From a virus (lineage: Duplodnaviria > Caudoviricetes), in IMG/VR virus record IMGVR_UViG_3300028738_000008: a DNA stretch of 64,000 nucleotides; one strand, given 5' to 3'. Every line of letters begins with the position of its first letter. Position 1 is the first letter of the stretch. The notes below the pieces were generated by a model. The model made no database searches, was not told the DNA's origin, and saw only the letters and a program-made list of their open reading frames with translations. Both the position numbers and the translations under genes were made by a program. Positions 328 to 63,091 of the stretch are shown one piece after another.

Positions 328-1482
328 ATGAAAAGTTATCAAAAGGTTTTGAAAAAGATCATCGCTAAGGGCGTTGAAAAAGAAAGTGGCAGAGCCAATA
401 TGCCTAATACAATTGGCATATCGCATGCGGTTATAAAAATGGACTTGCAAAAGGGCTTTCCATTGCTAACGACAAAGAAAATGCATTGGAAAGGCATTAT
501 TCATGAATTGCTATGGTTTCTACGTGGCGAAACAAACATTAAATATCTTATTGATAACAATTGCAATATCTGGAATAGTGATGCATATCGTTGGTATTTA
601 AAGTATGTCGGCACAATGGTTGAGCCTGATTACGACTATTTGATGGACGACCCAATTGAAAATAAGACCAGACCATTCACATCCGAAGAATTCGTTGAGA
701 GAATTAAATTAAATCAGCTTGGTGATGATTTATCATATAAATTAGGCGATCTTGGTAAAGTTTATGGTTATCAATGGAGAAATCAAAATGGTGTTGATCA
801 GGTTGCCGAGGTATTAGACGGCTTGAAAAATAATCCATACTCACGCTATCATATTATTGATGCATGGAACAAAGCCGAGTTCAAAGAAATGGCCCTTCCA
901 CCATGTCATTTGTTATATCAGTTTATCGTCAGACCTATAAGTATTGAGAAAAGGGTGAAAATGTATTATGACAATGGTGAAATGGTTCATGTTATATTGG
1001 GCAATGCTGTTTACGATATTGATAGTACGTATACAAGCGAAAATGATATACATGGCGACAATTGTCCCGATCCGATTGGTATAGAATACTCAAAAGAAAA
1101 TATTGAATATCTTGATAAACAGAACATACCAAAGTTCTATCTTGACCTAAACATGTATCAAAGATCGGCAGATTCTGCGCTTGGAATTCCATTTAATTTA
1201 GCGTCAATGTCTTTATTATTGATGTTGTTTGCAAAAGCAAATAATATGATAGCTGGAATATCAACATGGATTGGTGGAGATACACATCTATATGTTAATC
1301 ATGTTGAAACAGCTAAAGAACAGCTTACTAGAACTCCGTTAGGCTTGCCTGAAATGAAAATTAACAAAGAATTGAATAATCTTGATGATATTTTATCATT
1401 AGATATAAATGATTTTGAGTTGGTTGGATACGAGTCATACCCAAAAATAAACTATGAATTATTTGTGGGACTTGCGAAATAA
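328..1482 (+). CDS. thyA: thymidylate synthase
   Basis: Motifs GFPLLTTKK, ELLWFLRG, DLGKVYGYQWR, ALPPCH (catalytic Cys), YQRSAD..LGIPFN; about 70 aa insertion before LDLNMYQRS. Confidence 0.97.
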   Translation: MKSYQKVLKKIIAKGVEKESGRANMPNTIGISHAVIKMDLQKGFPLLTTKKMHWKGIIHELLWFLRGETNIKYLIDNNCNIWNSDAYRWYLKYVGTMVEPDYDYLMDDPIENKTRPFTSEEFVERIKLNQLGDDLSYKLGDLGKVYGYQWRNQNGVDQVAEVLDGLKNNPYSRYHIIDAWNKAEFKEMALPPCHLLYQFIVRPISIEKRVKMYYDNGEMVHVILGNAVYDIDSTYTSENDIHGDNCPDPIGIEYSKENIEYLDKQNIPKFYLDLNMYQRSADSALGIPFNLASMSLLLMLFAKANNMIAGISTWIGGDTHLYVNHVETAKEQLTRTPLGLPEMKINKELNNLDDILSLDINDFELVGYESYPKINYELFVGLAK

Positions 1483-2864: not shown

Positions 2865-3398
2865 TTACTCAATGTTTATTACATCACCCTTGACAGGTAC
2901 ACACTTCACAGTTTTGAAGTAGGGTTTGAATCCGCCTATACTTTTCTTGGTTGTGTCAGTTACATTATTTGCGTTTTCAACCTCGTAGAATCGGCTCTTT
3001 TCGCCACTAAAGTTATATTCAATGATGTCGCCTCTAGCTATATCGGCGTTCTTTTCTTCAAGTTCTTGAAGATACACTCCGAAGCTTAAAATACCTGAAT
3101 CATCACGAGCAATTCCGCCTGAACCATCACCATAATTTACCTGTGTTCCATCTTCAACGCCAACCATAACATTTAGTCTGATCGGTGGAAAAAATTTCTT
3201 ATCAATGCTTTTTGCTTGACCGTATAAACTATGGGTTTTTGTTTCAATGATATTAATTTTATGGAATGTTACAAATTGAACGTTATCGGTTTTCAGATAT
3301 TGTCTACCATAAAATATGTCAAGATCAAACGAACTGTCCGTCATGAACAATCCGTATCTCTCGTCTTCCAAATTAATTCTATTTGCTTTCTTTTTCAT
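2865..3398 (-). CDS. putative head-completion/neck protein (T4 gp14-like)
   Basis: Directly follows the gp13-like gene; ..GDIIEY....RFYEV..A pattern; assignment largely from synteny. Confidence 0.45.
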   Translation of the reverse strand: MKKKANRINLEDERYGLFMTDSSFDLDIFYGRQYLKTDNVQFVTFHKINIIETKTHSLYGQAKSIDKKFFPPIRLNVMVGVEDGTQVNYGDGSGGIARDDSGILSFGVYLQELEEKNADIARGDIIEYNFSGEKSRFYEVENANNVTDTTKKSIGGFKPYFKTVKCVPVKGDVINIE

Positions 3399-8790: not shown

Positions 8791-8805
8791 TAAATATATT
8801 TACGA

Positions 8806-10449
8806 CTAGTTTAAATCGCCGATTCCGAATGTCTGTAGACCATCGCAGAAGATTCTACCGAAGTAACGGTTAAGAACCATTTTCTTAGCATAACGAGTGA
8901 TGATACCACGTATTGGTGTGAAATCAAAAGGGTTATACATTACAGGTGTTAACTGCATGGGAACGTAGGGAGCATAAATGTAACCGGTTTCTAGGATACT
9001 TGTTCCTTTGTGACCGATAAGGATCGTGTTTGCTGGTGCATATGGGTCACGATACACAAGGTAACGTGCTGATAATGTACCTACTTTTTCGATACCCATG
9101 TTATATTTATCCTGTTCTGGGTCTGCATTAGACACGTGGAAATACTCTAAGTCATCCATTACGGCACTAACTTCTGGAGAAACAACGATCCAAGATGCGC
9201 CACCACGAAGGGTAGATTTGTGAATCTGAGCACTGATCTGGTTGATCTTGGTTAACAAGGTCTGATTCCAGTCTTTCTGTGTACCCATGTAGGCAGTAGT
9301 CTGACGTCTAAGACCGTTATAGTCCCAACGTGCTGTCCAAGCTGCACCTCTACGTAAGTCACGTAAGATTTCTCTGTCGATTTCAGCTGCCATTTGTTCT
9401 GACAATAAAGCAGTCAATTCAGCTTCTGCATCGATGTTGTGGAATGCGCTAACGTCCTGTGCAAGTTCTGGAGTCCACTGTGATCTCATTTTACGAGTTT
9501 CAACAGAAACAGTTACCTGATCAAGAACGAAAGTTACCTCAGCCATGTGAGAATCTTCTTCAAGATCGCTGTATGTTCTGTAAGTATAGTTGAAAGTTAC
9601 GCCAGAAGTTGCAGCTGATAATGGTTGGTAACCATCTGCGCCTGGGTATGTTAGGTCAACGATCAATTCAATAACGCCAGCTGTATTGACAATTGCTTGT
9701 CCGTATTTCTGAACCTTAACATTGAAAGGAAGAGTTGCTCCAGCAAGAATGCTTTCAGTTGCAAAAGCAGCTGGTGCATTGAAGGCTGTGTTGGAAGTGA
9801 TTTTCAAACCTGCAAGGAATGATTCAGTATCCTGAGCAGCACCCTTAGGCCCGATCAATTTACCTTGTTCTGTTGCAGTGAAACCACTGAATTTTACACT
9901 TACATACTTGTCACCAACAACATATGTTGAAACAGTTGTACCTGTGTTAGTGGTAATTTCCCCTTTAGAGTTGTCGAACAATGAAGTTCCTTCGTCGTTG
10001 TAGCTCTGAGCATAGAATGCATCATACAATGAACGTGATTCGTACTGAGTACCAGCATCTGGTTGATTGTCAGCAGCATTTCCATAAGCACCACGAGGGG
10101 CCGTATGAGGAGCAGTACTAGTTTTAGGGTTGATGTAATACAATTTACCGATAGGTAAATTCAACGCCTGAACACTAACGATATCGTTGGCAAGCAATTT
10201 TGCGAATACCCTACGAATTACAGGGAACGCAACAGTCTCAAACTGACCTGATGATGCTGAATCGGTTGATTCATTGATCATATAAGATAACTGGTTTTCG
10301 AAAAGCTGTGCGCAGTTTTCTTTTACATGTCCGTCAAGACCTTTAAGCAAACCGATTTTTTCCCAACGGTTTGTAGTTATTTCTCTTTGTTCACGAAGTT
10401 GTTTAAGACCAATGTTTCCTACTTCGTTACTTTCTGTTAAAAATCCCAT
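8806..10449 (-). CDS. major capsid protein, T4 gp23 family
   Basis: VSVQALNLPIGKLYY, TRKMRSQWTPELAQDVSAFHNIDAEAELTALLSEQMAAEIDREI, GYIYAPYVP, RGIITRYA. Confidence 0.96.
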   Translation of the reverse strand: MGFLTESNEVGNIGLKQLREQREITTNRWEKIGLLKGLDGHVKENCAQLFENQLSYMINESTDSASSGQFETVAFPVIRRVFAKLLANDIVSVQALNLPIGKLYYINPKTSTAPHTAPRGAYGNAADNQPDAGTQYESRSLYDAFYAQSYNDEGTSLFDNSKGEITTNTGTTVSTYVVGDKYVSVKFSGFTATEQGKLIGPKGAAQDTESFLAGLKITSNTAFNAPAAFATESILAGATLPFNVKVQKYGQAIVNTAGVIELIVDLTYPGADGYQPLSAATSGVTFNYTYRTYSDLEEDSHMAEVTFVLDQVTVSVETRKMRSQWTPELAQDVSAFHNIDAEAELTALLSEQMAAEIDREILRDLRRGAAWTARWDYNGLRRQTTAYMGTQKDWNQTLLTKINQISAQIHKSTLRGGASWIVVSPEVSAVMDDLEYFHVSNADPEQDKYNMGIEKVGTLSARYLVYRDPYAPANTILIGHKGTSILETGYIYAPYVPMQLTPVMYNPFDFTPIRGIITRYAKKMVLNRYFGRIFCDGLQTFGIGDLN

Positions 10450-10492
10450 AGTTTTTTTAATTTTTATTCTTTATTTCTTATGTTTGCCTAAA

Positions 10493-37246: not shown

Positions 37247-37301
37247 CGAATTCTATGATATTAGAATTACAAAATAATAATAAATAAAAAAAATATATAT
37301 A

Positions 37302-40300
37302 ATGGCATCATTTAGTTTAGTTTTTGATAATATAAGTAATGCTGACGCCTTAATAGGTGGATCATCGTCAGATATTAATGTTTGGAATACATTCCTTGAC
37401 TTGCCTAATAATGGCACGCCTATTAATAACGTATCTGTCGATGTGAATACAGTAATATTAGCTGGCGGCGCAAATATTCATTTAAAGGATTCGCTATTTG
37501 CAAACAGATTAGCTCTGCTTTCTATTAGCGATACTAATTGTATTGTGAGTGCTGGAGACCAATGCTTTTATGGTTGTACGTCAGTTAATACTTTAAATCT
37601 ACCCACATTAGCAACTGCTGGGGATCAATGTTTTTATGGCTGTAATTCCATAAATACGTTTGAATTGCCATTACTATTAACTGCTGGAAATAGTTGTTTT
37701 GGCGGATGCACAGCAGCTAATTCATTTAATCTATCCTCTTGTACTAATTTAGGAACTGATTTAGGTAATAATAATGTTTTTTATAATATTAGCGGTGGAA
37801 ATATAAGCCTAACAATACCAGCAGCATTAATGACTATTAACGGCGGAAATCCTGATGGTGATATAAGTGATTTATATTCAAGAAATTATATAAACTATAA
37901 TTTAGTTTATTATCCTTTAGAGTTGACATTTAATGATATAGCTAATGCCGATACCTTGATAGGCGGGTCGTCAACTGATGTGAGTTTTTGGAATGCATTT
38001 TTTGACTTACCTAATAATGGTACAGCGTTTACATCTGTAGAGGTTCTTGATAGTACCGTTAAATTATTCGGTGGAGCAAACATTCATTTAAAGGACGATA
38101 TATTTAATTCGAATTTGACATTAATTTCTGTTAATGATATCTTAGGATGCATTGTATCAGCTGGATTTGGCTGTTTTAATGCCTGTACATCTGCAACGTC
38201 TTTTAATTTACCGTCTTTAGCCAATTCTGGCGCATATTTATTTTATAGCTGTACATCTGCAACGTCTTTTAATTTACCATCTTTGATATCTGTCGTTGAT
38301 AGCTGTTTTAATAACTGTATAGCGGCAACATTTTTTAATTTATCATCATGTGTTAATTTAGGATCAACAGCAGATAGTAATTTTGTTTTTGCTAATAATA
38401 TTGGCAATACAATTAGCTTGACAATCCCAATTGAATTGATGACTGTGAATGGCGGAAATCCTGATGGAGATATTCAATATTTACAAGCTAATAACACCGT
38501 TAATATAACTGAGGTTGTAACCACAACCACAACAACCACGACAACAACCACGTTGCCTCCGACAACCACAACTACGACAACCACCGTTAGTCCATTTCCT
38601 CATATAGTTAACTCAAGTACCGAATATGATAGAATAATCATACACTTTAATACGAACGTATATGAGTATATGACATTGGGTAGTATGATCATATTCATTA
38701 ATGGTCAGCAATCAGTAAAGCGCATTCCACATGTATACGGGACTACAACTATCACAATAGACACCGATATAATATCATATGACGATAGCGTTTCTGTATA
38801 TATTCCTCAATATGCTCTTGCTGATAGTAGCAATAACTCTGTTGCAGAGGGAAATTATGCTATAAACAATACAGTCCCGATGTCTACAACCTCGACAACA
38901 ACCACGACAACAACCACGTTGCCACCTGTGCCGCCAAAGAGAAAGGTTCAGCCTAAATTGTTTGCTGATAGAGACCCTTTGAATACTGATAATGCTTTAA
39001 CTTTTATATCTGTTGGACAAATGTGGCATAATAATATTACTGGTGATGAGTTCTACCATAAATTTGATGGGGAATGGGTTGCACTTGGTAGCGGAAGCGG
39101 CGGTGGTATTATTGAAATACTTTATGATGATCTTTATACTTTATACGATAATGGTGAATTTGTAGCTGGACAGCAATATTTATTAACTGATTATATGACG
39201 ACATATACAAGACCTGTTACTAATGAAAATATTGAGTCAGGATTTGTAGAGCCATTATTGCTTACAGCAATCTCAAGTAGGGCTATAAATCCTATATGTT
39301 CAAGTATAATAAGGACTGATGATATTATATATTATCAAATACCCAATAACAGTATTGGATCAACAAAAGGGATTATATACAGGAGAATCGATACTGTGTA
39401 TAATAATGACGTATATACTGATTGGAGAAATATCAAATACCGTAGATGGGCTGTTACCGTTCCTAATGCATGGAATGTAAATGATATACATAATTCAGGA
39501 GATTTGGTTTATAACAGTGCTGATAATAGTATTTATATATGTGCAAAAGATGGTGTTACAGGCGGAGATCCTAATAATGATTATGATAATTGGTTTAATA
39601 CAGGCATTAAAAATGGCTCATATATTTCATCATCATCAACAAATTTCCCTATACAATATAATGGCAATATGTATAATTTGGCTGTTAACGCAGGTATATA
39701 TCTTGATTTTTTGATGATGAATACCGAATCGAGTGTTGATATTCAGAATAATGTTATTATTTCTGGGTATGACGTATTGCCTAATATTGTTATTGATAGC
39801 GTATATGCTAAAGATATTAAAATTGTTAATAGTAGCGATATTACCATCGGCTATGAAAATTCAATGATATCTATTGACTCTAATAATGAACATATTGTAA
39901 TCGGCTCTGGTAACCATAATATATCAATAGGTGCAGGCAATAACAATATTACTATAGGTTCTAATAATCATTCAGTCGCTATTACTAATTACAATAATGA
40001 TATTACAATTGGAAATGACAATTGTACATTATTTATGGATGAATATAATAACAGTGTCACAATTGGCTCAAATTGTGACACTGTTATTATAAGCGTTGAT
40101 AATAATAGTGTGCTTGTAAGCGGTGGCGTAATTGAAGTAAACATTGGATCATATAATAACGGCGTTCGCATGAGTAGTAATTGTTTCAGTGTATATATTC
40201 AAGGTGAAAATTCAAATATATTTATTGGCTCAAATACTGGTAATATATTTATGAGTACAGATAACAGCAACATTATATTTGGTACTAATTGTGCGTATAT

Positions 40301-40517
40301 AACTTTTGATAGCAGTAACCGTAACATTACGTTCGGTGACAATGTTTTAAAATATAACGTTAATAATGCGTTCTTTAATAATTCTACATATTTTGTACCT
40401 GCACAGGTGATGACTAATAAGAGATATAAATTATATGGTAGTGTTAACGGTAACAATGCTTATATGTCATATATCGATAACTTTGACGACATTAATATTA
40501 TAGACATTACAATTTAA
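37302..40517 (+). CDS. modular adhesin: two BspA-LRR units, Thr linkers, QPK module, beta-helix
   Basis: L.FDNI.NAD.LIGGSS modules, L.TAG..CF.GC LRRs, poly-Thr tracts, KRKVQPKLFADRDP, DWRNIKYRRW, I.IG..N..I.IG repeats. Confidence 0.75.
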   Translation: MASFSLVFDNISNADALIGGSSSDINVWNTFLDLPNNGTPINNVSVDVNTVILAGGANIHLKDSLFANRLALLSISDTNCIVSAGDQCFYGCTSVNTLNLPTLATAGDQCFYGCNSINTFELPLLLTAGNSCFGGCTAANSFNLSSCTNLGTDLGNNNVFYNISGGNISLTIPAALMTINGGNPDGDISDLYSRNYINYNLVYYPLELTFNDIANADTLIGGSSTDVSFWNAFFDLPNNGTAFTSVEVLDSTVKLFGGANIHLKDDIFNSNLTLISVNDILGCIVSAGFGCFNACTSATSFNLPSLANSGAYLFYSCTSATSFNLPSLISVVDSCFNNCIAATFFNLSSCVNLGSTADSNFVFANNIGNTISLTIPIELMTVNGGNPDGDIQYLQANNTVNITEVVTTTTTTTTTTTLPPTTTTTTTTVSPFPHIVNSSTEYDRIIIHFNTNVYEYMTLGSMIIFINGQQSVKRIPHVYGTTTITIDTDIISYDDSVSVYIPQYALADSSNNSVAEGNYAINNTVPMSTTSTTTTTTTTLPPVPPKRKVQPKLFADRDPLNTDNALTFISVGQMWHNNITGDEFYHKFDGEWVALGSGSGGGIIEILYDDLYTLYDNGEFVAGQQYLLTDYMTTYTRPVTNENIESGFVEPLLLTAISSRAINPICSSIIRTDDIIYYQIPNNSIGSTKGIIYRRIDTVYNNDVYTDWRNIKYRRWAVTVPNAWNVNDIHNSGDLVYNSADNSIYICAKDGVTGGDPNNDYDNWFNTGIKNGSYISSSSTNFPIQYNGNMYNLAVNAGIYLDFLMMNTESSVDIQNNVIISGYDVLPNIVIDSVYAKDIKIVNSSDITIGYENSMISIDSNNEHIVIGSGNHNISIGAGNNNITIGSNNHSVAITNYNNDITIGNDNCTLFMDEYNNSVTIGSNCDTVIISVDNNSVLVSGGVIEVNIGSYNNGVRMSSNCFSVYIQGENSNIFIGSNTGNIFMSTDNSNIIFGTNCAYITFDSSNRNITFGDNVLKYNVNNAFFNNSTYFVPAQVMTNKRYKLYGSVNGNNAYMSYIDNFDDINIIDITI

Positions 40518-40541
40518 TTTGCAGATTAATTATAAAAAATT

Positions 40542-43500
40542 ATGACAATACCATTTATAGCGACTTGGGACACTACTAAGGTTAGTGGCGGCGGAAGCGA
40601 ATATAATCAAATAAAGCTGCCCTTAGTTAGCGGCGGAACTTATAATTTTGATATTAATTGGGGTGACGGCAATTCGGAAACTATTACTGCATGGGATCAA
40701 TCTGGTACTATGCATAGTTACGAGACTCCTAATATTTACGAAATTAATATAGACGGCGTTATTAACGGCTGGTCGTTTGCAGATAATAATGATCGTCAGA
40801 AATTGCTTGATGTTATACAGTGGGGTGATTTATTAGTTAGCGATGGCGGAAATCAGTTTAACGGCTGTGGATACTTTACATGCAGTGCAACTGATACGTT
40901 AAATATATCTGGAATTACAAACATGTCGTACATGTTTGCCAATTGTTTTGAATTTACACATAATATCAGTAATTGGGATGTATCTAATGTTACAGATATG
41001 TCATACATGCTTCAATACTGTTGGCAATTTAACCACGATCTCAGTAATTGGGATGTTTCAAAGGTTACCAACATGTCAGGATTATTTAACGGCTGTGAAA
41101 GTTTTAATTCAAATATCAGTAATTGGACTGTATCTGGAGTCACCGATATGTCATATATGTTTGATGCGGCTAAAGCATTTAATCAGGATCTTAGCTCTTG
41201 GGATGTTTCGAATGTGACTACAATGTCATATATGTTTTTTAATGCTCAAATATTCAATCAGGATATTAGTTCTTGGAATATATCTGGTGTTACAAACATG
41301 GATAATTTAATATATCTTAATACAGTATTTTCAACTACTAATTATGATAAACTTTTAAATTCATGGTCATTACAAAGTGTTCAGCCAAACGTGCTTCTTG
41401 GCGTATATCAAACAACTTACACAGCGGTAGCAGCAAAAGAAATATTAACGTCTGCACCGAATAACTGGATAATAACTGACGGCGGATTATACTCTGCCGC
41501 AACTACAACCACTACGACAACTGTTATGCCTGCTGGGGAATTTATATCCACTTGGGTGACATCACGTGGCGATAATGCATCATCCAATAGTATTAAATTA
41601 CCGTTAGTTAGCGGCGGTACTTATAGTTTCACTGTAATTTGGGGCGATGGCTCAAGCGATTATATTTCTGCTTGGGATCAAGCAGAAATTAATCATATAT
41701 ATGCATCAGGAGGCACTTATATAGTTGAAATAAATGGATTGATTAATGGGTGGAAATTTATTGGAGGCCATACAGATGAAGAAAAAATAGACAATATAAA
41801 TCAGTGGGGTTGCTTACAGTTTGGAAATGGCGGCGGAATGGGCGGATGTGTAAATTTAAATTGTAGTGCCACAGATATCCCCAATTTAAGCGGTATCACA
41901 GATATGTCGAGTATGTTTTTTAATTGTTATTATTTGGTATTGGATGCGAGTAGCTGGGACGTTTCGAATGCTACTAATATGGCTGGTATGTTTTCTGGCT
42001 GCTATAATTTCAAATCGGATTTAAGCCAATGGCGTACTGGTAATGTCGTTGATATGAGAAGCATGTTTAGTGATTGTAGTAATTTTACTTCAGATTTAAG
42101 TCAATGGGACACTGCTAATGTTACCGATATGTCTGGGATGTTTTATCAGTGTACATCATTCACATCAAATCTAAGCCAATGGATTACTAGTGCTGTTATC
42201 GACATGAATAATATGTTTAATATGTGTACTTTATTTTCATCTGATTTGAGTCAATGGGACGTGTCTAATGTAACTCAAATGTATTTGATGTTTTACAGAT
42301 GTACCAATTTCAACTCAAATCTCAGTGGATGGAATGTATCGAAGGTTATAGACATGGGCGAAATGTATAATTATGCAAAGTTAAGCATAGTAAATTATAG
42401 TAATATGCTTATTAGCTGGTCTATGAAATCTGTGCAATCTGATGTATCATTGGGAGCAAATGATACTCAATATCTACCATCGGCAGAATCAGCCAGAACA
42501 TTTTTAATGAGTGCCCCTAATAATTGGATGATTTCAGATGCTGGGTTATTTTCAGGAACAATAACAAGTTTAGATTTAACATTTGATAATATAAGTAATG
42601 CTGATACGTTGATAGGCGGATCATCATCGGACGTTAGTCTTTGGAATACTTTATTTGATCTGCCTAATAATGGTACATCATTTACATCTGTTGCTGTTGA
42701 TGGAAACACAGTTAGTTTAGATGGCGGTGTTAATATTCATTTAAGGGATTATTTATTCATAAATAACGTATCATTATTATCTATTGTTGCCGTTAATTGC
42801 GTTACAACAGCTGGAGATAGTTGTTTTCAGAATTGCACAGCAGCAACAAGCTTTAGTTTACCAGCCTTAACAACAGCTGGAGATAGTTGTTTTTATAATT
42901 GCACAGCAGCAACAAGCTTTAGTTTACCAGCCTTAACAACAGCTGGAAACGGTTGTTTTTATTTTTGTACAGCAGCAACAAGCTTTAGTTTACCAGCCTT
43001 AACAACTGTTGGAGATAGTTGTTTTCAGAATTGCACAGCAGCAACAAGCTTTAGTTTACCAGCCTTAATAACTGTTGGAGATTATTGTTTTTATTTATGC
43101 ACAGCAGCAACAACATTTGATCTTAGTTCTTGTACTAATTTAGGTGGTACAACTGGGGACAATAATGTGTTTTATGGTATATCTACGAATTCAATTGATT
43201 TAACAATACCATCAGCCTTGTTGACTGTTAATAACGGTAATCCTGATGGTGATATTCAATACCTTCAAGCAAATAACACTGTTACAATAGTTCGAATGGT
43301 ATTACAGAAGAAGATTCAGCCTAAAATATTTACTGAATATGACCCAACAGATGTAAATAATATGGCTTCTGGATTTTCTTTGGGTCAGGTTTGGCATAAT
43401 ACATTAACAAATAAAGAATTCATTCATGATAGTGATGGCGTATGGATATCGAATAATATAATTGTTGAGGATTCATTCAATGGTATTTATGTTTTATACC

Positions 43501-43574
43501 AAAATGAGTATGATGCATTAAATTTTCCTGTTGATGGTATCTTATATTTCGTCAGAGAAGTGCAATTAACATAA
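40542..43574 (+). CDS. modular adhesin: two DUF285-type repeat domains, BspA-LRR, QPK module
   Basis: INWGDG (PKD-like), WDVSNVTDMSYMF repeats, TTAGDSCF.NCTAATSFSLPAL repeats, MVLQKKIQPK. Confidence 0.8.
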   Translation: MTIPFIATWDTTKVSGGGSEYNQIKLPLVSGGTYNFDINWGDGNSETITAWDQSGTMHSYETPNIYEINIDGVINGWSFADNNDRQKLLDVIQWGDLLVSDGGNQFNGCGYFTCSATDTLNISGITNMSYMFANCFEFTHNISNWDVSNVTDMSYMLQYCWQFNHDLSNWDVSKVTNMSGLFNGCESFNSNISNWTVSGVTDMSYMFDAAKAFNQDLSSWDVSNVTTMSYMFFNAQIFNQDISSWNISGVTNMDNLIYLNTVFSTTNYDKLLNSWSLQSVQPNVLLGVYQTTYTAVAAKEILTSAPNNWIITDGGLYSAATTTTTTTVMPAGEFISTWVTSRGDNASSNSIKLPLVSGGTYSFTVIWGDGSSDYISAWDQAEINHIYASGGTYIVEINGLINGWKFIGGHTDEEKIDNINQWGCLQFGNGGGMGGCVNLNCSATDIPNLSGITDMSSMFFNCYYLVLDASSWDVSNATNMAGMFSGCYNFKSDLSQWRTGNVVDMRSMFSDCSNFTSDLSQWDTANVTDMSGMFYQCTSFTSNLSQWITSAVIDMNNMFNMCTLFSSDLSQWDVSNVTQMYLMFYRCTNFNSNLSGWNVSKVIDMGEMYNYAKLSIVNYSNMLISWSMKSVQSDVSLGANDTQYLPSAESARTFLMSAPNNWMISDAGLFSGTITSLDLTFDNISNADTLIGGSSSDVSLWNTLFDLPNNGTSFTSVAVDGNTVSLDGGVNIHLRDYLFINNVSLLSIVAVNCVTTAGDSCFQNCTAATSFSLPALTTAGDSCFYNCTAATSFSLPALTTAGNGCFYFCTAATSFSLPALTTVGDSCFQNCTAATSFSLPALITVGDYCFYLCTAATTFDLSSCTNLGGTTGDNNVFYGISTNSIDLTIPSALLTVNNGNPDGDIQYLQANNTVTIVRMVLQKKIQPKIFTEYDPTDVNNMASGFSLGQVWHNTLTNKEFIHDSDGVWISNNIIVEDSFNGIYVLYQNEYDALNFPVDGILYFVREVQLT
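42804..43112 (+). repeat. about 4.7 x 66-bp tandem repeat encoding 22-aa LRR units
   Basis: Units start at 42804, 42870, 42936, 43002 and 43068 and are near-identical at DNA level. Confidence 0.92.
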
Positions 43575-43587
43575 TAAATAAAATACT

Positions 43588-43851
43588 ATGACATTACAGA
43601 AGAAAATACAGCCTAAGTTATTCTCGGATAGAAATCCCACTGAAAATGATAATATAAGTACAGGATTTTCTTTGGGTCAGATTTGGCGCAACGTATTAAC
43701 CAATGACGAATATATTCATTTTTCGGATGGTATTTGGTATTTAGCTAATTTGAAAACTAATAATACTTTCACAGGTGTTTACGTACTAACACTGGCAGAT
43801 TATAACTTAATAACGCCTGATGCAAATATCTTATACATTTTAAAACAATAA
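43588..43851 (+). CDS. stand-alone QPK-module protein
   Basis: MTLQKKIQPKLFSDRNP...GFSLGQIW.N; homologous to internal modules of neighbouring genes. Confidence 0.75.
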   Translation: MTLQKKIQPKLFSDRNPTENDNISTGFSLGQIWRNVLTNDEYIHFSDGIWYLANLKTNNTFTGVYVLTLADYNLITPDANILYILKQ

Positions 43852-43853
43852 AT

Positions 43854-44957
43854 ATGGCAAGTTTAGATTTAACATTTGATAATATAAGTAATGCTGATAC
43901 ATTAATAGGAGGATCATCATCAAGCATTACAATTTGGAACAGATTTTTCGACATATCTAATAATGGGTCGCCATTTACATCAGTTATTGTGAGTGGAAAT
44001 ACTGTTGGCTTATCAGGTGCTACAAATATTAATTTAAGAGACGGTTTATTCCAAGGTATTGCGTCAATATTGTCTGTGGAAGATAATGCACATTGCGTAA
44101 CAACAGCTGGTAATAATTGTTTTGCTAATTGCGAATTCGTAGCATCCCTTAATTTTCCAGTATTAATATCTGCTGGCGATAGTTGTTTTATTAGCTGCAT
44201 CGCATTAACGTCTATAAATTTTCCACTATTAGCAACAGCTGGTAATTATTGCTTCGGATTGTGTTCGCCAACCACTATTTACTTACCGTCTCTAATAATC
44301 GCAAGCCCTAATTGTTTCAATAGTTGTAGATTCACAACGAATTTTAATTTGCCTTTAACGACAACAGTTGGTTTCAACTGTTTTGAAGGTTGCGTATCTG
44401 TTGCATTATTAAATTTGTCGTCATGTTTAAATTTAGGCGAATCTGTTGATGATAACAGCGTATTTGCAAGCATAATCGGCAAGACATTCACATTATTGAT
44501 ACCAGTAGCATTGTCAACATGTAATGCAGGCTCGCCAGACGGCGATATCCAATATTTATTATCTAATGATAATGTGACTATTAATTACATATTACCACCA
44601 ATGGTATTACAGAAGAAGATTCAGCCTAAAATATTCGCTGAATATAATCCAACAGATGTAAATAATATGGCTTCTGGATTTTCTTTGGGTCAGGTTTGGC
44701 GTAACACATTAACCAATAAAGAGTTTTTACATAGAACAGATGACGAATGGATTCCTTTGAGTTTTATTATTGATAATTCATTCGACGGAATTCAAGCAGC
44801 TTCAGATAGTATAACCATTCTCCCAACAAGTGAAAACCCTATCGGGGCATTCCTTGGTAATGAAAAGATAATAGCAGTATATTTTAACGGTGTAAAGATA
44901 TATGATTGGAGCAGTATTATTGGTACAACTACAACAACCACGCTGCCGCCTGTTTAA
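43854..44957 (+). CDS. BspA-LRR protein with QPK module
   Basis: MASLDLTFDNISNAD, LRRs, PDGDIQYL cap, MVLQKKIQPK. Confidence 0.78.
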   Translation: MASLDLTFDNISNADTLIGGSSSSITIWNRFFDISNNGSPFTSVIVSGNTVGLSGATNINLRDGLFQGIASILSVEDNAHCVTTAGNNCFANCEFVASLNFPVLISAGDSCFISCIALTSINFPLLATAGNYCFGLCSPTTIYLPSLIIASPNCFNSCRFTTNFNLPLTTTVGFNCFEGCVSVALLNLSSCLNLGESVDDNSVFASIIGKTFTLLIPVALSTCNAGSPDGDIQYLLSNDNVTINYILPPMVLQKKIQPKIFAEYNPTDVNNMASGFSLGQVWRNTLTNKEFLHRTDDEWIPLSFIIDNSFDGIQAASDSITILPTSENPIGAFLGNEKIIAVYFNGVKIYDWSSIIGTTTTTTLPPV

Positions 44958-51110: not shown

Positions 51111-51195
51111 CTAGGCGTAGCCCTGTAGTTGGTAGCAGTCCTGATTTGGGATCAGGCGTGGTAACACCTCGTGAGTTCGACCCTCACCGCTTAGA
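51111..51195 (+). tRNA. tRNA-Pro(TGG) with long variable arm
   Basis: CCTGA-TT TGG GA-TCAGG; acceptor CTAGGCG/CGCTTAG. Confidence 0.8.
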
Positions 51196-51205
51196 CAAAA
51201 TTTAT

Positions 51206-55696: not shown

Positions 55697-55786
55697 ACGT
55701 CTATGTCCGAGTGGCTTAAGGAACTGGTCTCCAAAACCAGCGTGGGTGACACCATATCCAAGGTTCGAATCCTTGTTGGCGTGCCA
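55697..55786 (+). tRNA. tRNA with Trp anticodon (CCA) and long variable arm
   Basis: CTGGT-CT CCA AA-ACCAG; G73; encoded CCA; 90 nt. Confidence 0.8.
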
Positions 55787-58737: not shown

Positions 58738-58840
58738 AATGTCAATATTTTTATAATAAATACTTACACAAACTCTTTTCGTTTGTATTTATGTTAAAAC
58801 AATTTAAAGCATATTTTTTTATTAAAAATACCTGATTTAT

Positions 58841-60463
58841 ATGAAAACATTACACGAATCGCCATTTGTATATTTATATGAAAACTCTGGCCATAAGGAA
58901 AAAACTGTTCGTAGCATTAATATAAATGCAAGTAAGGCACAAGCAATATACGTTCCAGTGCCACCACCAACAGTTAACGCCTTATTAATGACTTTTAATG
59001 ATATATCAGGTACTTTTGTTACAGACCCATCATCTGTTGAAGAATGGAACATATTTTTTGATTTACCAGTAAATGGTAATCCGTTTACATCTGTCTCAAT
59101 ATCTTCAAATACCGTTAGTTTATTTGGCGGTAGTGACATAACTCTAAAAAATTACTTATTCGGCGATACTGATTTTGGAAACAATCTGTTGGAGTTCATT
59201 GATGATAGCGGAATCATTATTAATAGTGGTAATGGAGCATTTAGCGATACAGGCGAAATTGGTAATGGATGCCACAATATAACAAAAATATCAATGTCAG
59301 CATGCGTATCATTAGGTGATGAAACATTTGCTGATTGCTATTCATTAACAGATTTATCATTACCATTCGATAGTTATGTTACCTTGGGTTCAAATATTTT
59401 TCGTTCTTGTGGTATGGCATCATTAAGCTTTTCATCATTAACAATGGCTGGAGATAGCTGCTTCAATAGCTTGTCACTTTTAACTGAATTTAGTGCACCA
59501 ATATTAATCGTTGCGGATATGAATTGTTTTTCTGGATGCGTTGCAATATCAGCAATATCATTGCCGTCATTAACAACGGCTGGAGACGGCTGTTTCAGTA
59601 ATTGCGTATCGTTATCAATTCCTGATCTACCAATTGCAACAACTGCTGGAGTTAACTGCTTTTACAATTGTTCGACATTATCATCATTATCATTACCAGA
59701 TTTAGTTACTGCTGGAGAAAGCTGTTTCAGTAATTGCGTATCGTTATCAACTGTCGATCTGCCATTATTAACAACTGCTGGAAATGGTTGCTTTTACGGT
59801 TGTCCATTATCATCATTATCATTACCAGATTTAGTTACTGCTGGAGAAAGCTGCTTTATGGGAATAAGATCATTTACTACCATGAATTTACCATCCTTAT
59901 CATCGATAGGTACTACTTGTTTTCAAGATTGCGCATCTTTGTTAGCAGTTAATTTACCAGCATTAATCACAATGGGCGAAGGCTGTTTTAATGGATGCAC
60001 ATCTTTACTAACAGTAGACATGCCACAGTGTCAAACAGCTGGCGGCGGTTGCTTTAGTTATTGTACGTCGTTAACATCAGTAGACATGGCATCACTGATT
60101 TCAATGGGAAATTCATTTTTTTTAAACTGCATATCTTTAGTGACATTAAATCTTCCTTTATTATCGTCTGCCACGCAATCTTGTTTTGCGACCTGTACAT
60201 CATTGGTAGACATCAGTTTACCATCATTAATATCAACTGGTAATTATTTCTTTAACGGCTGTACGTTATTAACAAACATCAGTTTACCGTCATGCGTTAG
60301 TTTAGGACTTACTTTATATAATGATTCAGTTTTCAATAATATTACAGGCAAAAAAATAACTTTAACAGTGCCAACAGCTTTAATGACTTGTAATAGTGGA
60401 TCGCCTGATGGTGATATAGCTTATTTACAGGCTAATAACATAGTAACACTGATAACAGTTTAA
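58841..60463 (+). CDS. BspA-type leucine-rich repeat protein
   Basis: LLMTFNDI module, about 14 L.TAG..CF..C..L repeats, TVPTALMTCNSGSPDGDIAYL cap. Confidence 0.82.
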   Translation: MKTLHESPFVYLYENSGHKEKTVRSININASKAQAIYVPVPPPTVNALLMTFNDISGTFVTDPSSVEEWNIFFDLPVNGNPFTSVSISSNTVSLFGGSDITLKNYLFGDTDFGNNLLEFIDDSGIIINSGNGAFSDTGEIGNGCHNITKISMSACVSLGDETFADCYSLTDLSLPFDSYVTLGSNIFRSCGMASLSFSSLTMAGDSCFNSLSLLTEFSAPILIVADMNCFSGCVAISAISLPSLTTAGDGCFSNCVSLSIPDLPIATTAGVNCFYNCSTLSSLSLPDLVTAGESCFSNCVSLSTVDLPLLTTAGNGCFYGCPLSSLSLPDLVTAGESCFMGIRSFTTMNLPSLSSIGTTCFQDCASLLAVNLPALITMGEGCFNGCTSLLTVDMPQCQTAGGGCFSYCTSLTSVDMASLISMGNSFFLNCISLVTLNLPLLSSATQSCFATCTSLVDISLPSLISTGNYFFNGCTLLTNISLPSCVSLGLTLYNDSVFNNITGKKITLTVPTALMTCNSGSPDGDIAYLQANNIVTLITV

Positions 60464-60720: not shown

Positions 60721-60792
60721 GCTCCTATAGCTTAATGGTAAAGCCTTCGACCTTTAATCGAATGACCCCTGAATCAGTATCAGGTGGGAGCA
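60721..60792 (+). tRNA. tRNA-Lys(TTT), divergent
   Basis: TTCGA-CC TTT AA-TCGAA (C33); T-loop ATCAGTA. Confidence 0.75.
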
Positions 60793-61256: not shown

Positions 61257-61337
61257 GGCGGCAGACGGGTAATGGAAATCCTAGGGGCATGCAATCCTGA
61301 GTCACAGACTATGTTGGTTCGAATCCAACCGTCGCCA
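61257..61337 (+). tRNA. atypical tRNA-like gene of unresolved identity
   Basis: Acceptor GGCGGCA/CGTCGCC and T arm GTTGG TTCGAAT CCAAC; anticodon region GGGGCATGCAATCCT is non-canonical. Confidence 0.5.
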
Positions 61338-61623: not shown

Positions 61624-61658
61624 GAATGGCGATTGAAGAAATTTAGTCGCCATTTTTT
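61624..61658 (+). terminator. intrinsic terminator
   Basis: AATGGCGATT...AGTCGCCATT followed by a T run. Confidence 0.75.
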
Positions 61659-61697
61659 GTAACCTTTTTGGTTTCTTAACGTATAAGTATTAAAATT

Positions 61698-61769
61698 GGC
61701 TCGTTAGTTCAGCGGTTAGGGCGTCTGACTCTAAATCAGAAGGCATGGTTTCGAATACCATACGAGCCG
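61698..61769 (+). tRNA. amber suppressor tRNA (anticodon CTA)
   Basis: TCTGA-CT CTA AA-TCAGA; perfect acceptor stem GGCTCGT/ACGAGCC; G73. Confidence 0.88.
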
Positions 61770-61783
61770 CAAATAATTATAAT

Positions 61784-62080
61784 ATGAGAAAAATAACTGT
61801 TGAAAATGTGATGGCTGATGATCCTATGAAGGTACTCCAGCAATGGCGTAGCGTTAATGATAAGATCACCAGATTCATAAACGTGGCAAATCCAAGGGTT
61901 TATATGTTCATATTTGGCGAATCAGAAGGCATGCGACTATGGGAACATTTCGTAAACAATTGCGACAGACATGATTTCCAGAAATTTATGACATATTTAA
62001 CATCAGAGCAATACAATGACCTGATGATCAATTTATATTATAATGACGGCATGTATTCATTGGTGCATTATAACGATTAA
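61784..62080 (+). CDS. hypothetical protein
   Basis: Start corrected to MRKITVENV; the listed start lies inside the suppressor tRNA. Confidence 0.7.
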   Translation: MRKITVENVMADDPMKVLQQWRSVNDKITRFINVANPRVYMFIFGESEGMRLWEHFVNNCDRHDFQKFMTYLTSEQYNDLMINLYYNDGMYSLVHYND

Positions 62081-62090
62081 TAAAAAAAGA

Positions 62091-62122
62091 CTTGCATAAT
62101 TGAATTATTTAGTTTATTTTTG
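62091..62122 (+). promoter_or_regulatory. Bacteroidota sigma-type promoter for the Pth2-like gene
   Basis: CTTG N20 TATTTTTG, 35 nt before ATG 62158. Confidence 0.7.
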
Positions 62123-62157
62123 CAGTCTATTAGTATTTAATATTAAAAAGTAAGATT

Positions 62158-62487
62158 ATGACGTAGGTTAAATTAGTAACAGTAACAAGGAAAGACCTCA
62201 AAGCAGGTTATCAATTAGTACAGTCAGCACACGGCTTAGCTGAGTTTGCACATGTATATCCAACACATTTCAATGATTGGATGCGAGATTCAAAGTATCT
62301 CGTTTCATTGTCAGTCGATAATGAAGAAAACCTCAAAGAATTATTTAGTGAATTAACCAGTAATGGCGCAATCATTGTGGCATTTAACGAACCTGATATA
62401 AATGATCAGCTGACATCGATATGCTTTTATGGTACGCCAGAGATTAGGAAATTGACTGAACATTTAGATTTAGCATTAAAAAATTAA
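62158..62487 (+). CDS. peptidyl-tRNA hydrolase type 2-like protein with in-frame TAG at codon 3
   Basis: ATG ACG TAG GTT AAA...; MT*VKLVTVTRKDLKAGYQLVQSAHGLAEF...YLVSLSVDNEE...FNEPDINDQLTSICF resembles Pth2 K...V.R.DL....AQ.AHA; frame continuous with ORF 62281..62487. Confidence 0.82.
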
Positions 62488-62635: not shown

Positions 62636-63091
62636 ATGGAAGCAGTAGCAAATAGTTCAAAAATAGTATCAAAGGATACACAGGCATTAGTAAACGGTAT
62701 TTCAGAAGTTATCGCCGTAATCAATAGCAAAATCAAAACAACTGACTGGAAGCAGTCATCGTCATTAAGTGTTTACAACAATCCAAAGTTGTTCTCATTG
62801 GTAGCTGATTTAGGCACATGCGACAGAAAAAGATTGAAGAGAATTCTAAACAGATGCATGACTAACACAAGTCTTAGGAACATCAATTCAGTTATACATT
62901 TCTTATCAAAAACAGTATATAACGATCTAATTCCTACGGCTTATGTTCGTTTATCAGCCACAGAAACAGCTATACAGTTAGCTAGAAAAAAATACGTGGA
63001 ATCTCGTAAGGCAACAGAAGCTTTACAGGCTAAATACAAGGTAGTTAAAGGGGATTACTACAAAATGAAAACAGCATTAGACTTAAAATAA
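62636..63091 (+). CDS. hypothetical basic protein
   Basis: 151 aa ORF with an A-rich start context. Confidence 0.72.
   Translation: MEAVANSSKIVSKDTQALVNGISEVIAVINSKIKTTDWKQSSSLSVYNNPKLFSLVADLGTCDRKRLKRILNRCMTNTSLRNINSVIHFLSKTVYNDLIPTAYVRLSATETAIQLARKKYVESRKATEALQAKYKVVKGDYYKMKTALDLK

What the first reader, a model, noticed from the sequence alone, without database searches (positions are those of the whole stretch)
61698..62487. Amber suppressor tRNA coupled to a Pth2-like gene interrupted by TAG at codon 3
Seen: a well-formed tRNA with anticodon CTA, and about 390 nt downstream a promoter, a good start context and ATG ACG TAG continuing in frame into a complete Pth2-like N-terminus. The ORF track misses the first 41 codons. 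All long genes read through with code 11, so this is local rather than genome-wide recoding. Established: two-codon minigenes such as lambda bar cause peptidyl-tRNA drop-off that Pth must clear. Inference: the hydrolase is made only when suppression outcompetes RF1; otherwise the same start gives a Met-Thr minigene. This could be a switch reporting suppressor level, RF1 activity or infection stage, and it would complement the tRNA-supply operons by recycling sequestered tRNA.
Basis: partly seen in the sequence, partly recalled or inferred. Interest (0 to 1): 0.9.

Follow-up and report, generated by a model that had tools for sequence, protein, structure and literature searches.

The report
Stop-codon-gated tRNA-hydrolase gene with suppressor tRNA
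A giant phage from peat that otherwise uses the normal genetic code carries one tRNA that reads the stop codon UAG, and beside it a small peptidyl-tRNA-hydrolase-like gene that opens ATG-ACG-TAG. Dozens of related phages keep the same pairing, so the early stop looks like a deliberate switch rather than damage.

Summary
A tRNA(CUA) lies at 61698-61770. 387 nt downstream, a Pth2-fold gene starts ATG-ACG-TAG (62158-62487).

The TAG is not an error. Contigs from two sequencing runs match the window there without a difference, and a separately assembled relative (97% identical protein) has the same ATG-ACG-TAG.

The TAG is conserved. Of 39 related IMG/VR loci, 36 have an in-frame TAG just before the first beta-strand, 2 have TAA and 1 has no stop. 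A matching suppressor tRNA lies within 3 kb on the same strand in 34 of the 38 loci with a stop. Both TAA loci carry tRNA(UUA) instead of tRNA(CUA).

Recoding is local, not genome-wide. The capsid, portal and terminase genes in the window have no in-frame TAG. Three complete relatives (328-363 kb) gain almost no coding density when TAG is read as sense. Each has a single suppressor tRNA, placed next to this gene.

The "Q" at this position in database homologues is TAG translated with code 15, so the inserted amino acid is unknown.

Best reading: the hydrolase-like protein is made only when the phage suppressor reads through the stop. Why the two are coupled is inferred.

I found no published description. 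This scan has noted the same module before on other DNA, in at least 46 genomes.

The parts
61626..61659 (+). Terminator-like hairpin (7-bp stem ATGGCGA/TCGCCAT, 14-nt loop, T-run) after the upstream 79-aa ORF
   Evidence: Read directly from the sequence. The terminator scan did not report it because its loop limit is 8 nt.
61652..61694 (+). 43-nt element directly upstream of the suppressor tRNA. Further copies lie elsewhere on contigs of the same phage population. Possible promoter or processing signal.
   Evidence: tables 5 and 8: the same 43 nt occur three times on one 19.6-kb contig and on other contigs. It is unique within the window.
61698..61770 (+). Suppressor tRNA, anticodon CUA (61731-61733), elongator type, anticodon loop CUCUAAA, short variable loop
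   Evidence: ARAGORN. Rfam tRNA 63.6 bits. G1-C72 is paired and the anticodon stem lacks three G-C pairs, so it is not initiator-like (read). The same anticodon loop occurs in most relatives.
61784..62080 (+). 98-aa ORF of unknown function between the tRNA and the hydrolase-like gene. It holds this position in some relatives only.
   Evidence: tblastn hits at the same position in L001, L002/L005, L011, L013 and L027/L028. No Pfam, PHROG or NCBIfam family.
62088..62127 (+). Conserved upstream stretch (TTGCAT ... TATTTTTG), a candidate promoter of the hydrolase-like gene
   Evidence: Nearly identical in L001 and L002 although the L002 protein is only about 80% identical. Not a significant sigma-70 match. 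Not repeated in the window or in three relatives.
62158..62487 (+). Pth2-fold (peptidyl-tRNA-hydrolase-like) gene of 109 codons plus the TAA stop, readable in full only if TAG codon 3 is decoded
   Evidence: AF2 pLDDT 95.4. Foldseek top hits 2zv3, 3erj, 1wn2, 1q7s and 1xty. Many codon differences in codons 4-41 against relatives are synonymous.
62164..62166 (+). In-frame TAG (codon 3), the gate
   Evidence: Present in contigs from two runs and in L001. A stop sits at the equivalent position in 38 of 39 related IMG/VR loci.
62636..63091 (+). 151-aa all-helical protein of unknown function, a recurrent but not obligatory downstream neighbour of the hydrolase-like gene
   Evidence: Adjacent in 10 of 54 loci, including LR756500.1 and LR756504.1. 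91 representative clusters in the protein library. AF2 pLDDT 95.7, no PDB match, one uncharacterised AFDB cluster.

Best explanation
The window comes from a T4-like jumbo phage of about 330-360 kb, found in peat metagenomes, that uses the standard genetic code. It carries a two-part cassette: one amber-suppressor tRNA(CUA), and 387 nt downstream on the same strand a Pth2-fold hydrolase-like gene that opens ATG-ACG-TAG.

How it most likely works: a ribosome that starts at the ATG meets UAG after two codons. If release factor 1 wins, only a dipeptide is made. If the phage tRNA decodes the UAG, the complete 109-residue protein is made. The stop lies in the unstructured N-terminal tag just before the first beta-strand, so the identity of the inserted residue should not matter. 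The amount of hydrolase-like protein then follows the activity of the phage's own suppressor tRNA.

Shown here:
- the anatomy of the cassette;
- the Pth2 fold;
- conservation of the stop;
- the tRNA linkage, with stop codon and anticodon changing together;
- the absence of genome-wide recoding.

Inferred:
- that the tRNA is expressed, charged and actually decodes this codon;
- that the protein hydrolyses peptidyl- or N-blocked aminoacyl-tRNA;
- the reason for the coupling. My favoured reason is that the enzyme is useful or tolerable only while read-through is going on. It could clear peptidyl-tRNA and stalled-ribosome by-products that a suppressor causes in a standard-code cell, or it could act on the suppressor tRNA itself as a feedback.
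For: 1. The stop is under selection. Of 39 IMG/VR loci with 43-78% protein identity, 36 have TAG and 2 have TAA directly before the (V/I)KLVT strand. The codons on both sides vary: 14 different codons before the stop, 6 after it. The stop is also present in published genomes LR756500.1 and LR756504.1 and in cultured Mycobacterium phage I3, which reads ATG-TAG-GTG.
2. The tRNA is linked. A suppressor tRNA lies on the same strand within 3 kb in 34 of 38 loci with a stop. Each of three complete genomes has exactly one suppressor tRNA, 264-969 nt upstream of this gene.
3. Codon and anticodon match. The only two loci with TAA (L019, L032) are the only two with tRNA(UUA). A CUA tRNA cannot read UAA.
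4. The codons after the stop are translated. Codons 4-41 show 5-14 synonymous-only against 8-18 nonsynonymous codon differences versus relatives. The Pth2 profile and fold begin right after the stop.
5. There is no plausible restart. The codon after the stop is GTA or GTT in 16 of 32 loci and ATT, ATA or ATC in 15. An in-frame ATG lies 1-4 codons upstream in 30 of 32.
6. Recoding is local. Coverage by ORFs of 150 aa or more under code 11 versus TAG-as-sense is 0.711/0.725, 0.750/0.758 and 0.784/0.796 in three complete relatives, and 0.851/0.861 in the window. Reading TGA as sense, as a control, gains more. Capsid, portal and terminase genes have no in-frame stop. A comparative screen found no other conserved in-frame TAG.
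7. The TAG base is confirmed in contigs of two runs and in a separate assembly.
Against: - Nothing is experimental. Expression, processing, charging and decoding by the tRNA are unknown, and no RNA run holds the locus.
- The tRNA backbones and discriminator bases differ widely among relatives, so no amino-acid identity can be assigned. Some of these tRNAs may be poor substrates for host synthetases.
- TAG still ends about 5% of phage genes (51 of 963), including the capsid gene in this window. There is no enrichment of backup stops after TAG (p = 0.24). A strong suppressor would therefore have side effects that the genome does not visibly buffer.
- One distant locus (L043) keeps the adjacent tRNA(CUA) although its gene has a normal start and no TAG. 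Another (L040) has neither. The gate is therefore not obligatory.
- In Mycobacterium phage I3 a GTG follows the TAG at good distance from a GAAGG, so there a conventional start cannot be excluded.
- Catalytic competence is uncertain. The protein scores 21 bits against a cut-off of 126 on the Pth2 equivalog model, and the Lys of the Pth2 GK motif is replaced.
Confidence: 0.68

Rival explanations
1. The phage uses genetic code 15 (TAG = Gln) throughout, like Lak megaphages and some crAss-like phages. This TAG is then just one of many recoded codons, and the tRNA is the general decoder.
For: The nearest GenBank relatives by RNR and Pth2 are huge uncultured phages (LR756500.1, LR745206.1, LR756504.1). 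Database homologues read 'MKQVKL', as if Gln were conserved. The genome is AT-rich and poor in TAG, the state that Borges et al. link to recoding.
Against: The 'Q' is an artefact: those proteins were called with TAG = Q ('with_TAG=Q'). Reading TAG as sense adds only about 1% coding coverage in three complete relatives and in the window, less than the TGA control. The late genes (gp23-like capsid, portal, terminase) have no in-frame TAG. TAG ends 51 of 963 genes. No other conserved in-frame TAG was found.
Confidence: 0.03
2. The ATG-ACG-TAG is a tiny upstream ORF (a start-stop element). The hydrolase-like protein is made by re-initiation or non-canonical initiation at the next codon. The nearby suppressor tRNA is there only because the gene sits inside tRNA arrays.
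For: In Mycobacterium phage I3 the TAG is followed by GTG, 7 nt after a GAAGG. In 15 of 32 loci the next codon is ATT, ATA or ATC, which are rare but known bacterial start codons. The gene always lies in tRNA-rich regions.
Against: In 16 of 32 loci, including this window, the next codon is GTT or GTA, which are not known start codons. The stop type matches the neighbouring anticodon, TAA with UUA, which this model does not predict. Each complete genome has only one suppressor tRNA among 33-55 tRNAs, and it is the one nearest this gene.
Confidence: 0.1
3. One reading: the start works as a lambda-bar-like two-codon minigene whenever suppression fails. It releases Met-Thr-tRNA that needs Pth, so the locus is a bistable sensor of suppressor versus RF1 activity.
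For: The peptide before the stop is very short in most relatives, 1-4 codons in 30 of 32. From memory, not tested here: very short peptidyl-tRNAs drop off readily and are poor RF substrates in E. coli minigene studies. This would also favour suppression at an early stop.
Against: The length (1-9 codons) and the last sense codon (14 different codons) are not conserved. Bar toxicity depends on particular scarce tRNAs. One weakly expressed small gene is unlikely to sequester a tRNA pool in a phage that brings many tRNA genes of its own: 21 in this window, 33-55 in complete relatives. There is no direct evidence.
Confidence: 0.1
4. The gene is broken (nonsense mutation or sequencing error), or it is expressed only from the downstream ATG at 62281 as a 68-aa fragment.
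For: Under code 11 only the 68-aa ORF is called.
Against: The same base is seen in contigs of two runs and in a separate assembly. The stop is conserved across 38 of 39 diverged loci. Codons 4-41 show many synonymous changes. They encode strand 1 and helix 1 with the invariant Q19, Q22 and H25, which a 68-aa fragment would lack.
Confidence: 0.01

Closest known systems
Stop-codon-recoded phages with phage-encoded suppressor tRNAs (code 15, TAG to Gln; Lak megaphages, some crAss-like phages; Borges et al., bioRxiv 10.1101/2021.08.26.457843; Peters et al., PMC9523058)
   Same: A phage-encoded tRNA(CUA) decodes an in-frame TAG in a phage gene while the host uses the standard code. The stop is proposed to make translation depend on the phage tRNA.
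   Different: There, hundreds of in-frame TAGs are concentrated in late and lysis genes, and coding density collapses under code 11. Here the genome is standard-code, the late genes are TAG-free, and a single small gene next to the tRNA carries the one conserved TAG. The Borges preprint does not mention a hydrolase or peptidyl-tRNA.
prfB (release factor 2) autoregulation through an early in-frame UGA (from established knowledge, not tested here)
   Same: A translation-factor gene carries an early in-frame stop, so its output depends on how that stop is handled by the translation machinery it belongs to.
   Different: prfB is rescued by a +1 frameshift when RF2 is scarce, and its sensor and product are the same protein. 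Here rescue is by a dedicated suppressor tRNA, and no frameshift is needed. Whether the product feeds back on suppression is unknown.
Archaeal/eukaryotic peptidyl-tRNA hydrolase 2 (Pfam PF01981; PDB 2zv3, 3erj, 1wn2, 1q7s, 1xty)
   Same: The same four-strand, four-helix fold at TM 0.75-0.80. The R-x-D-L, Q-x-x-H and acidic-residue motifs align.
   Different: Only marginal sequence membership: 23.9 versus 23 bits on Pfam, and 21 versus 126 bits on the NCBIfam equivalog. The Lys of the GK motif is Tyr or Gln, and the DAG Asp is Glu. Activity has not been tested.
Orphan suppressor tRNAs of standard-code jumbo phages (for example Agrobacterium phage Atu_ph07, tRNA(UCA), PMC6102473)
   Same: A jumbo phage with a large tRNA set, one suppressor tRNA and a standard code.
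   Different: In that paper the targets of the suppressor are left open and are not linked to its Pth gene. Here a specific, conserved target is identified.
Lambda bar and other two-codon minigenes (from memory, not tested here)
   Same: A start codon, one sense codon and a stop could release a very short peptidyl-tRNA that needs Pth.
   Different: Bar minigenes are stand-alone and toxic only when Pth is limiting. Here the short ORF continues in frame into a conserved protein, and its length and codons vary among relatives.

Membership tests
Peptidyl-tRNA hydrolase 2 (Pth2, PF01981) | Sequence match above the curated family threshold | tested here: inconclusive
   Pfam PTH2 23.9 bits against a cut-off of 23, covering residues 4-78 only. 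NCBIfam Pth2 equivalogs score 21.3 against 126 bits and 18.8 against 82 bits, both failed. PHROG 1866 (unknown function) scores 52.5 bits.
Peptidyl-tRNA hydrolase 2 (Pth2, PF01981) | Pth2 alpha/beta fold (four-stranded sheet, four helices) | tested here: met
   AF2 pLDDT 95.4, pTM 0.88. Foldseek: 2zv3, 3erj, 1wn2, 1q7s and 1xty, E 8e-8 to 2.5e-5, TM 0.75-0.80.
Peptidyl-tRNA hydrolase 2 (Pth2, PF01981) | Conserved catalytic residues. From memory: a Lys in the N-terminal GK motif and an Asp in the DAG motif of S. solfataricus Pth2. I could not confirm the source in the paper library. | tested here: inconclusive
   HMM alignment to PDB 24bt and 2zv3: the GK Lys aligns with Tyr18 (Gln in some relatives), and the DAG Asp aligns with the invariant Glu78. 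Q22 and H25 are kept.
Peptidyl-tRNA hydrolase 2 (Pth2, PF01981) | Hydrolysis of peptidyl- or N-acyl-aminoacyl-tRNA | not testable with these tools
   Needs an enzyme assay.
Amber suppressor tRNA | Canonical cloverleaf with anticodon CUA | tested here: met
   ARAGORN. Rfam tRNA 63.6 bits against 29. The loop CUCUAAA has U33 and A37.
Amber suppressor tRNA | Expressed, aminoacylated and able to decode UAG | not testable with these tools
   No RNA run holds the locus. Indirect support only: conserved cognate stop and TAA/UUA covariation.
Genome-wide stop-codon-recoded phage (code 15) | Coding density rises markedly when TAG is read as sense, with many genes carrying in-frame TAG | tested here: not met
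   The gain is about 0.01 in the window and in three complete relatives. The late genes are TAG-free. There is one conserved in-frame TAG per genome.
Bacterial initiator-type tRNA (considered in case TAG were the start codon) | C1xA72 mismatch and three G-C pairs at the bottom of the anticodon stem | tested here: not met
   G1-C72 is paired, and the anticodon stem is UCUGA/UCAGA.

The most novel reading that the evidence does not exclude
The cassette is a self-contained homeostat for stop-codon read-through. The Pth2-like enzyme acts on the suppressor tRNA's own charged or peptidyl form, or on the products of the read-through it causes. Its synthesis needs that same tRNA. Infected cells would then be held at a set level of UAG read-through, in a loop comparable to prfB but built from a tRNA and a hydrolase. 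This would give 'orphan' suppressor tRNAs of standard-code phages a defined function and a first natural target.
Probability: 0.18. Interest if true: 0.9.

Novelty: new variant of a known kind. Interest (0 to 1): 0.74.

Why it matters
Suppressor tRNAs turn up in many standard-code jumbo phages, and their targets are usually unknown (for example PMC6102473). Here the tRNA has a specific, conserved, neighbouring target whose stop codon changes together with the anticodon.

If the gate works as read, it is a minimal natural circuit in which a tRNA acts as a translational regulator of one gene. It would also be a possible intermediate on the route to whole-genome stop-codon recoding.

It has a practical effect on annotation. 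Gene callers either truncate this gene under code 11 or read it with code 15 and print a spurious Gln.

It can be tested in a cultured system, because Bixzunavirus mycobacteriophages of M. smegmatis (I3, Bxz1) carry the same arrangement.

Tried and rejected
- Gln identity of the inserted residue. The apparent conserved Q in 40+ database homologues is TAG read with code 15 by the gene caller. Comparing the suppressor with all other tRNAs of the window and of three complete genomes gave no clear parent isoacceptor; the best matches were Val, Arg, Met and Ala at 0.67-0.73 identity.
- Other in-frame TAG targets. A cross-genome blastp screen of non-overlapping ORFs left two candidates. Both fell on inspection. 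One TAG lies out of frame inside the end of the preceding gene. For the other, the conserved 14-codon 'tail' stays conserved beyond the next stop, so it is not evidence of read-through.
- Backup stops after TAG-terminated genes: no enrichment (p = 0.24).
- Theta or HDV-like ribozymes, or any other Rfam family, next to the tRNA: none.
- A conserved RNA structure around the stop: RNAalifold on 32 loci gives no structure.
- Amber-initiator tRNA: rejected on acceptor and anticodon-stem features.
- Two independent origins of the TAA/UUA state: the protein tree hints at this. However, the two UUA tRNAs share a backbone with each other and with some CUA tRNAs, and L032 sits on a long branch. I claim at least one coordinated change, not two.
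- Functions for the 98-aa ORF and the 151-aa ORF: no family or solved-fold match.
- Literature: six full-text searches found no description of a suppressor tRNA paired with a stop-interrupted Pth gene.
- Whole genome of the window: not held. Genome-wide statements rest on the 64-kb window and on three complete relatives.

Full report
WHAT IS THERE

ARAGORN finds 21 tRNA genes in the window. The last is a 73-nt tRNA with anticodon CTA at 61698-61770 on the + strand. Rfam's tRNA model scores it 63.6 bits against a threshold of 29. It is an elongator-type tRNA: G1-C72 is paired, and the anticodon stem has no run of three G-C pairs. The anticodon loop is CUCUAAA.

387 nt downstream on the same strand, an ATG at 62158 is followed by ACG and then TAG (62164-62166). 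The frame then runs open to TAA at 62485-62487, which gives 109 residues if the TAG is decoded. Under code 11 only a 68-aa ORF from 62281 is called, so 41 codons are lost.

THE PROTEIN

- Pfam PTH2 matches marginally at 23.9 bits (cut-off 23). The match starts at residue 4, directly after the TAG.
- NCBIfam's Pth2 equivalog models are far from met, at 21 against 126 bits.
- An AlphaFold model built on 44 homologues has pLDDT 95.4. Its best PDB matches are all Pth2 structures (2zv3, 3erj, 1wn2, 1q7s, 1xty) at TM 0.75-0.80.
- In the HMM alignment to solved Pth2 chains, the R-x-D-L and Q-x-x-H motifs are kept. The Lys of the Pth2 GK motif is Tyr18 here, and the Asp of DAG aligns with an invariant Glu78.

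It is therefore a Pth2-fold protein of a divergent, phage-borne subfamily. Hydrolase activity is plausible but not shown.

THE TAG IS REAL AND CONSERVED

- Contigs from two sequencing runs of peat metagenomes match the window across the TAG without a single difference.
- A contig from another assembly, whose protein is 97% identical, also reads ATG-ACG-TAG.
- A pattern-plus-tblastn scan of IMG/VR returned 45 loci, many on contigs of 300-365 kb. Of the 39 loci with 43-78% identity, 36 have an in-frame TAG and 2 have TAA directly before the (V/I)KLVT strand. One (L040) has no stop.
- The codons on both sides of the stop vary freely. There are 14 different codons before it and 6 after it. The nearest in-frame ATG lies 1-4 codons upstream in 30 of 32 non-redundant loci, and 8-9 codons upstream in two.
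- Codons 4-41 show 5-14 synonymous-only against 8-18 nonsynonymous codon differences versus nine relatives. That stretch is therefore translated in this frame.
- Published genomes carry the same feature: LR756500.1 (ATG-AAG-TAG), LR756504.1 (ATG-ACA-TAG), and cultured Mycobacterium phage I3 (ATG-TAG-GTG) with an annotated tRNA(cta) about 300 nt downstream.

A CAUTION ABOUT THE DATABASE HOMOLOGUES

The protein database lists these homologues as 'MKQVKL...', which looks like a conserved Gln at the TAG position. For the one homologue whose DNA could be fetched, the tool reports that it translates 'with_TAG=Q'. The Q is therefore the gene caller's code 15, not evidence about the inserted residue.

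The suppressor tRNAs of relatives have very different acceptor stems and discriminator bases. None resembles a particular isoacceptor of its own genome. The amino acid is unknown. Because the stop lies in the unstructured N-terminal tag, its identity probably does not matter.

LINKAGE TO THE tRNA

- A suppressor tRNA on the same strand lies within the fetched 3 kb in 34 of the 38 loci with a stop. Two of the four exceptions have less than 340 nt of upstream sequence.
- Three complete relatives (CheckV 100%) have 55, 33 and 39 tRNA genes. Each has exactly one suppressor tRNA, 264-969 nt upstream of this gene.
- The only two loci in which the stop is TAA are the only two in which the tRNA has anticodon UUA. 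A CUA tRNA cannot read UAA, so this is the pattern expected if the tRNA decodes this codon.
- I cannot show that the TAA/UUA state arose twice.
- One distant locus (L043) keeps an adjacent tRNA(CUA) although its gene has an ordinary start and no TAG. The tRNA-hydrolase association may therefore be more basic than the gate.

LOCAL OR GENOME-WIDE RECODING

The nearest GenBank relatives are huge uncultured phages, so I first suspected code 15. The evidence is against it.

| Genome | Coverage by ORFs of 150 aa or more, code 11 | Same, TAG read as sense |
|---|---|---|
| Window | 0.851 | 0.861 |
| G001 | 0.711 | 0.725 |
| G002 | 0.750 | 0.758 |
| G003 | 0.784 | 0.796 |

- These gains are smaller than those of a TGA-as-sense control.
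- No ORF of 300 aa or more in the window contains a TAG. The window holds a gp23-like major capsid gene, a T4-like portal gene and a large terminase gene. These have no in-frame stop in any of the four genomes.
- A comparative screen for in-frame TAGs flanked by conserved protein sequence found only this gene consistently. Two further candidates failed on inspection.
- TAG is still used as a stop in 51 of 963 genes, including this window's capsid gene. TAG stops are not followed by backup stops more closely than TAA or TGA stops are (p = 0.24).

HOW IT MOST LIKELY WORKS

Translation starts at the ATG and meets UAG after two codons. Release factor 1 then ends a dipeptide, or the phage tRNA inserts a residue and the whole Pth2-fold protein is made. 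The amount of protein thus follows suppressor activity.

Re-initiation at the next codon is unlikely as a general mechanism. That codon is GTT or GTA in half of the loci, and re-initiation would not explain the codon-anticodon match. No conserved RNA structure surrounds the stop, and no ribozyme or other Rfam family flanks the tRNA.

Why the two parts are coupled is inference. The enzyme may be needed only when read-through produces stalled ribosomes and dropped peptidyl-tRNA. It may act on the suppressor itself as a feedback. Or the tRNA may simply time its expression.

The lambda-bar-style minigene idea is not excluded, but what is conserved does not support it. The short leader varies in both length and codons.

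COMPARISON WITH WHAT IS KNOWN

Phage suppressor tRNAs and regulatory use of recoded stops are known from code-15 and code-4 phages. There the recoding spans many late genes. The Borges et al. preprint mentions no hydrolase. Papers on standard-code jumbo phages with a suppressor tRNA leave its targets open. Six full-text searches found no description of this pairing.

The scan's own notebook shows that the same module has been reported before on other DNA, in at least 46 genomes, with similar conclusions. A later check there priced the bold 'self-contained switch' reading at 20 in 100. My independent tests agree with those notes on the observation. They add three points for this lineage: the Gln artefact, whole-genome evidence against recoding in three complete relatives, and negative results on backup stops and on other targets.

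VERDICT

I class it as a new variant of a known kind, namely suppressor-tRNA-dependent translation in phages. It is well conserved and can be tested in cultured mycobacteriophages.

Noticed in passing
window 60721-60792 (+) and 61257-61336 (+): Rfam finds a further tRNA (53.5 bits) at 60721-60792 that ARAGORN did not report. It also finds a weak tRNA-like match (21 bits, below threshold) at 61257-61336.
   Followed up: no
window 61652-61694 (+): A 43-nt element just upstream of the suppressor tRNA recurs three times on one 19.6-kb contig and on other contigs of the same metagenomes. It is unique in this window and absent from three relatives. It may be a strain-specific promoter or processing signal of tRNA genes.
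   Followed up: partly
window 8800-10470 (-): The gp23-like major capsid gene ends in TAG, followed by one Ser codon and then TAA. Its orthologues in three relatives end in TAA. If the suppressor is active, this abundant protein would gain two residues.
   Followed up: partly
window 62636-63091 (+); also L106 and L107: A 151-aa all-helical protein family (91 representative clusters, confident AF2 model, no solved-fold match) recurs directly downstream of the Pth2-like gene in 10 of 54 loci across distant lineages.
   Followed up: partly
L003 9890-10210 and L004 630-950: In two assemblies of one relative, the Pth2-like gene starts ATG-AAG-TAG but shows an apparent 1-nt frameshift in an A/G run after '..IVRK'. 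This could be an assembly error in a homopolymer or a real frameshift.
   Followed up: no
L107 (LR756500.1), about 3330-3380 of the locus: Directly after the Pth2-like gene lies a 15-codon ORF that again opens ATG-AAG-TAG-ATT (MK#IKITIRGPTYLF). It looks like a duplicated 5' end or a TAG-containing leader peptide.
   Followed up: no
L043 (IMG/VR 3300005529_000886): A distant Pth2-like gene has a normal ATG start and no in-frame TAG, yet still has a tRNA(CUA) about 170 nt downstream.
   Followed up: partly
G002 225221-228845 (-): The large-terminase orthologue is split into two tblastn pieces about 1.2 kb apart, whereas the window gene is continuous. This may be an intein, an intron or an inserted gene.
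   Followed up: no
window 37284-44957 and 58826-60463 (+): Several large ORFs carry BspA-type leucine-rich repeats (LRR_5) and DUF285 repeats. They may be host-recognition or surface proteins of this jumbo phage.
   Followed up: no
window 51111-51196, 55697-55786: tRNA-Pro(tgg) of 86 nt and tRNA-Trp(cca) of 90 nt are unusually long for class I tRNAs. They may contain insertions or introns.
   Followed up: no
window 328-1482 (+): The thymidylate synthase ORF is 384 aa, and its Pfam match is split into two stretches, which suggests an insertion in the enzyme.
   Followed up: no
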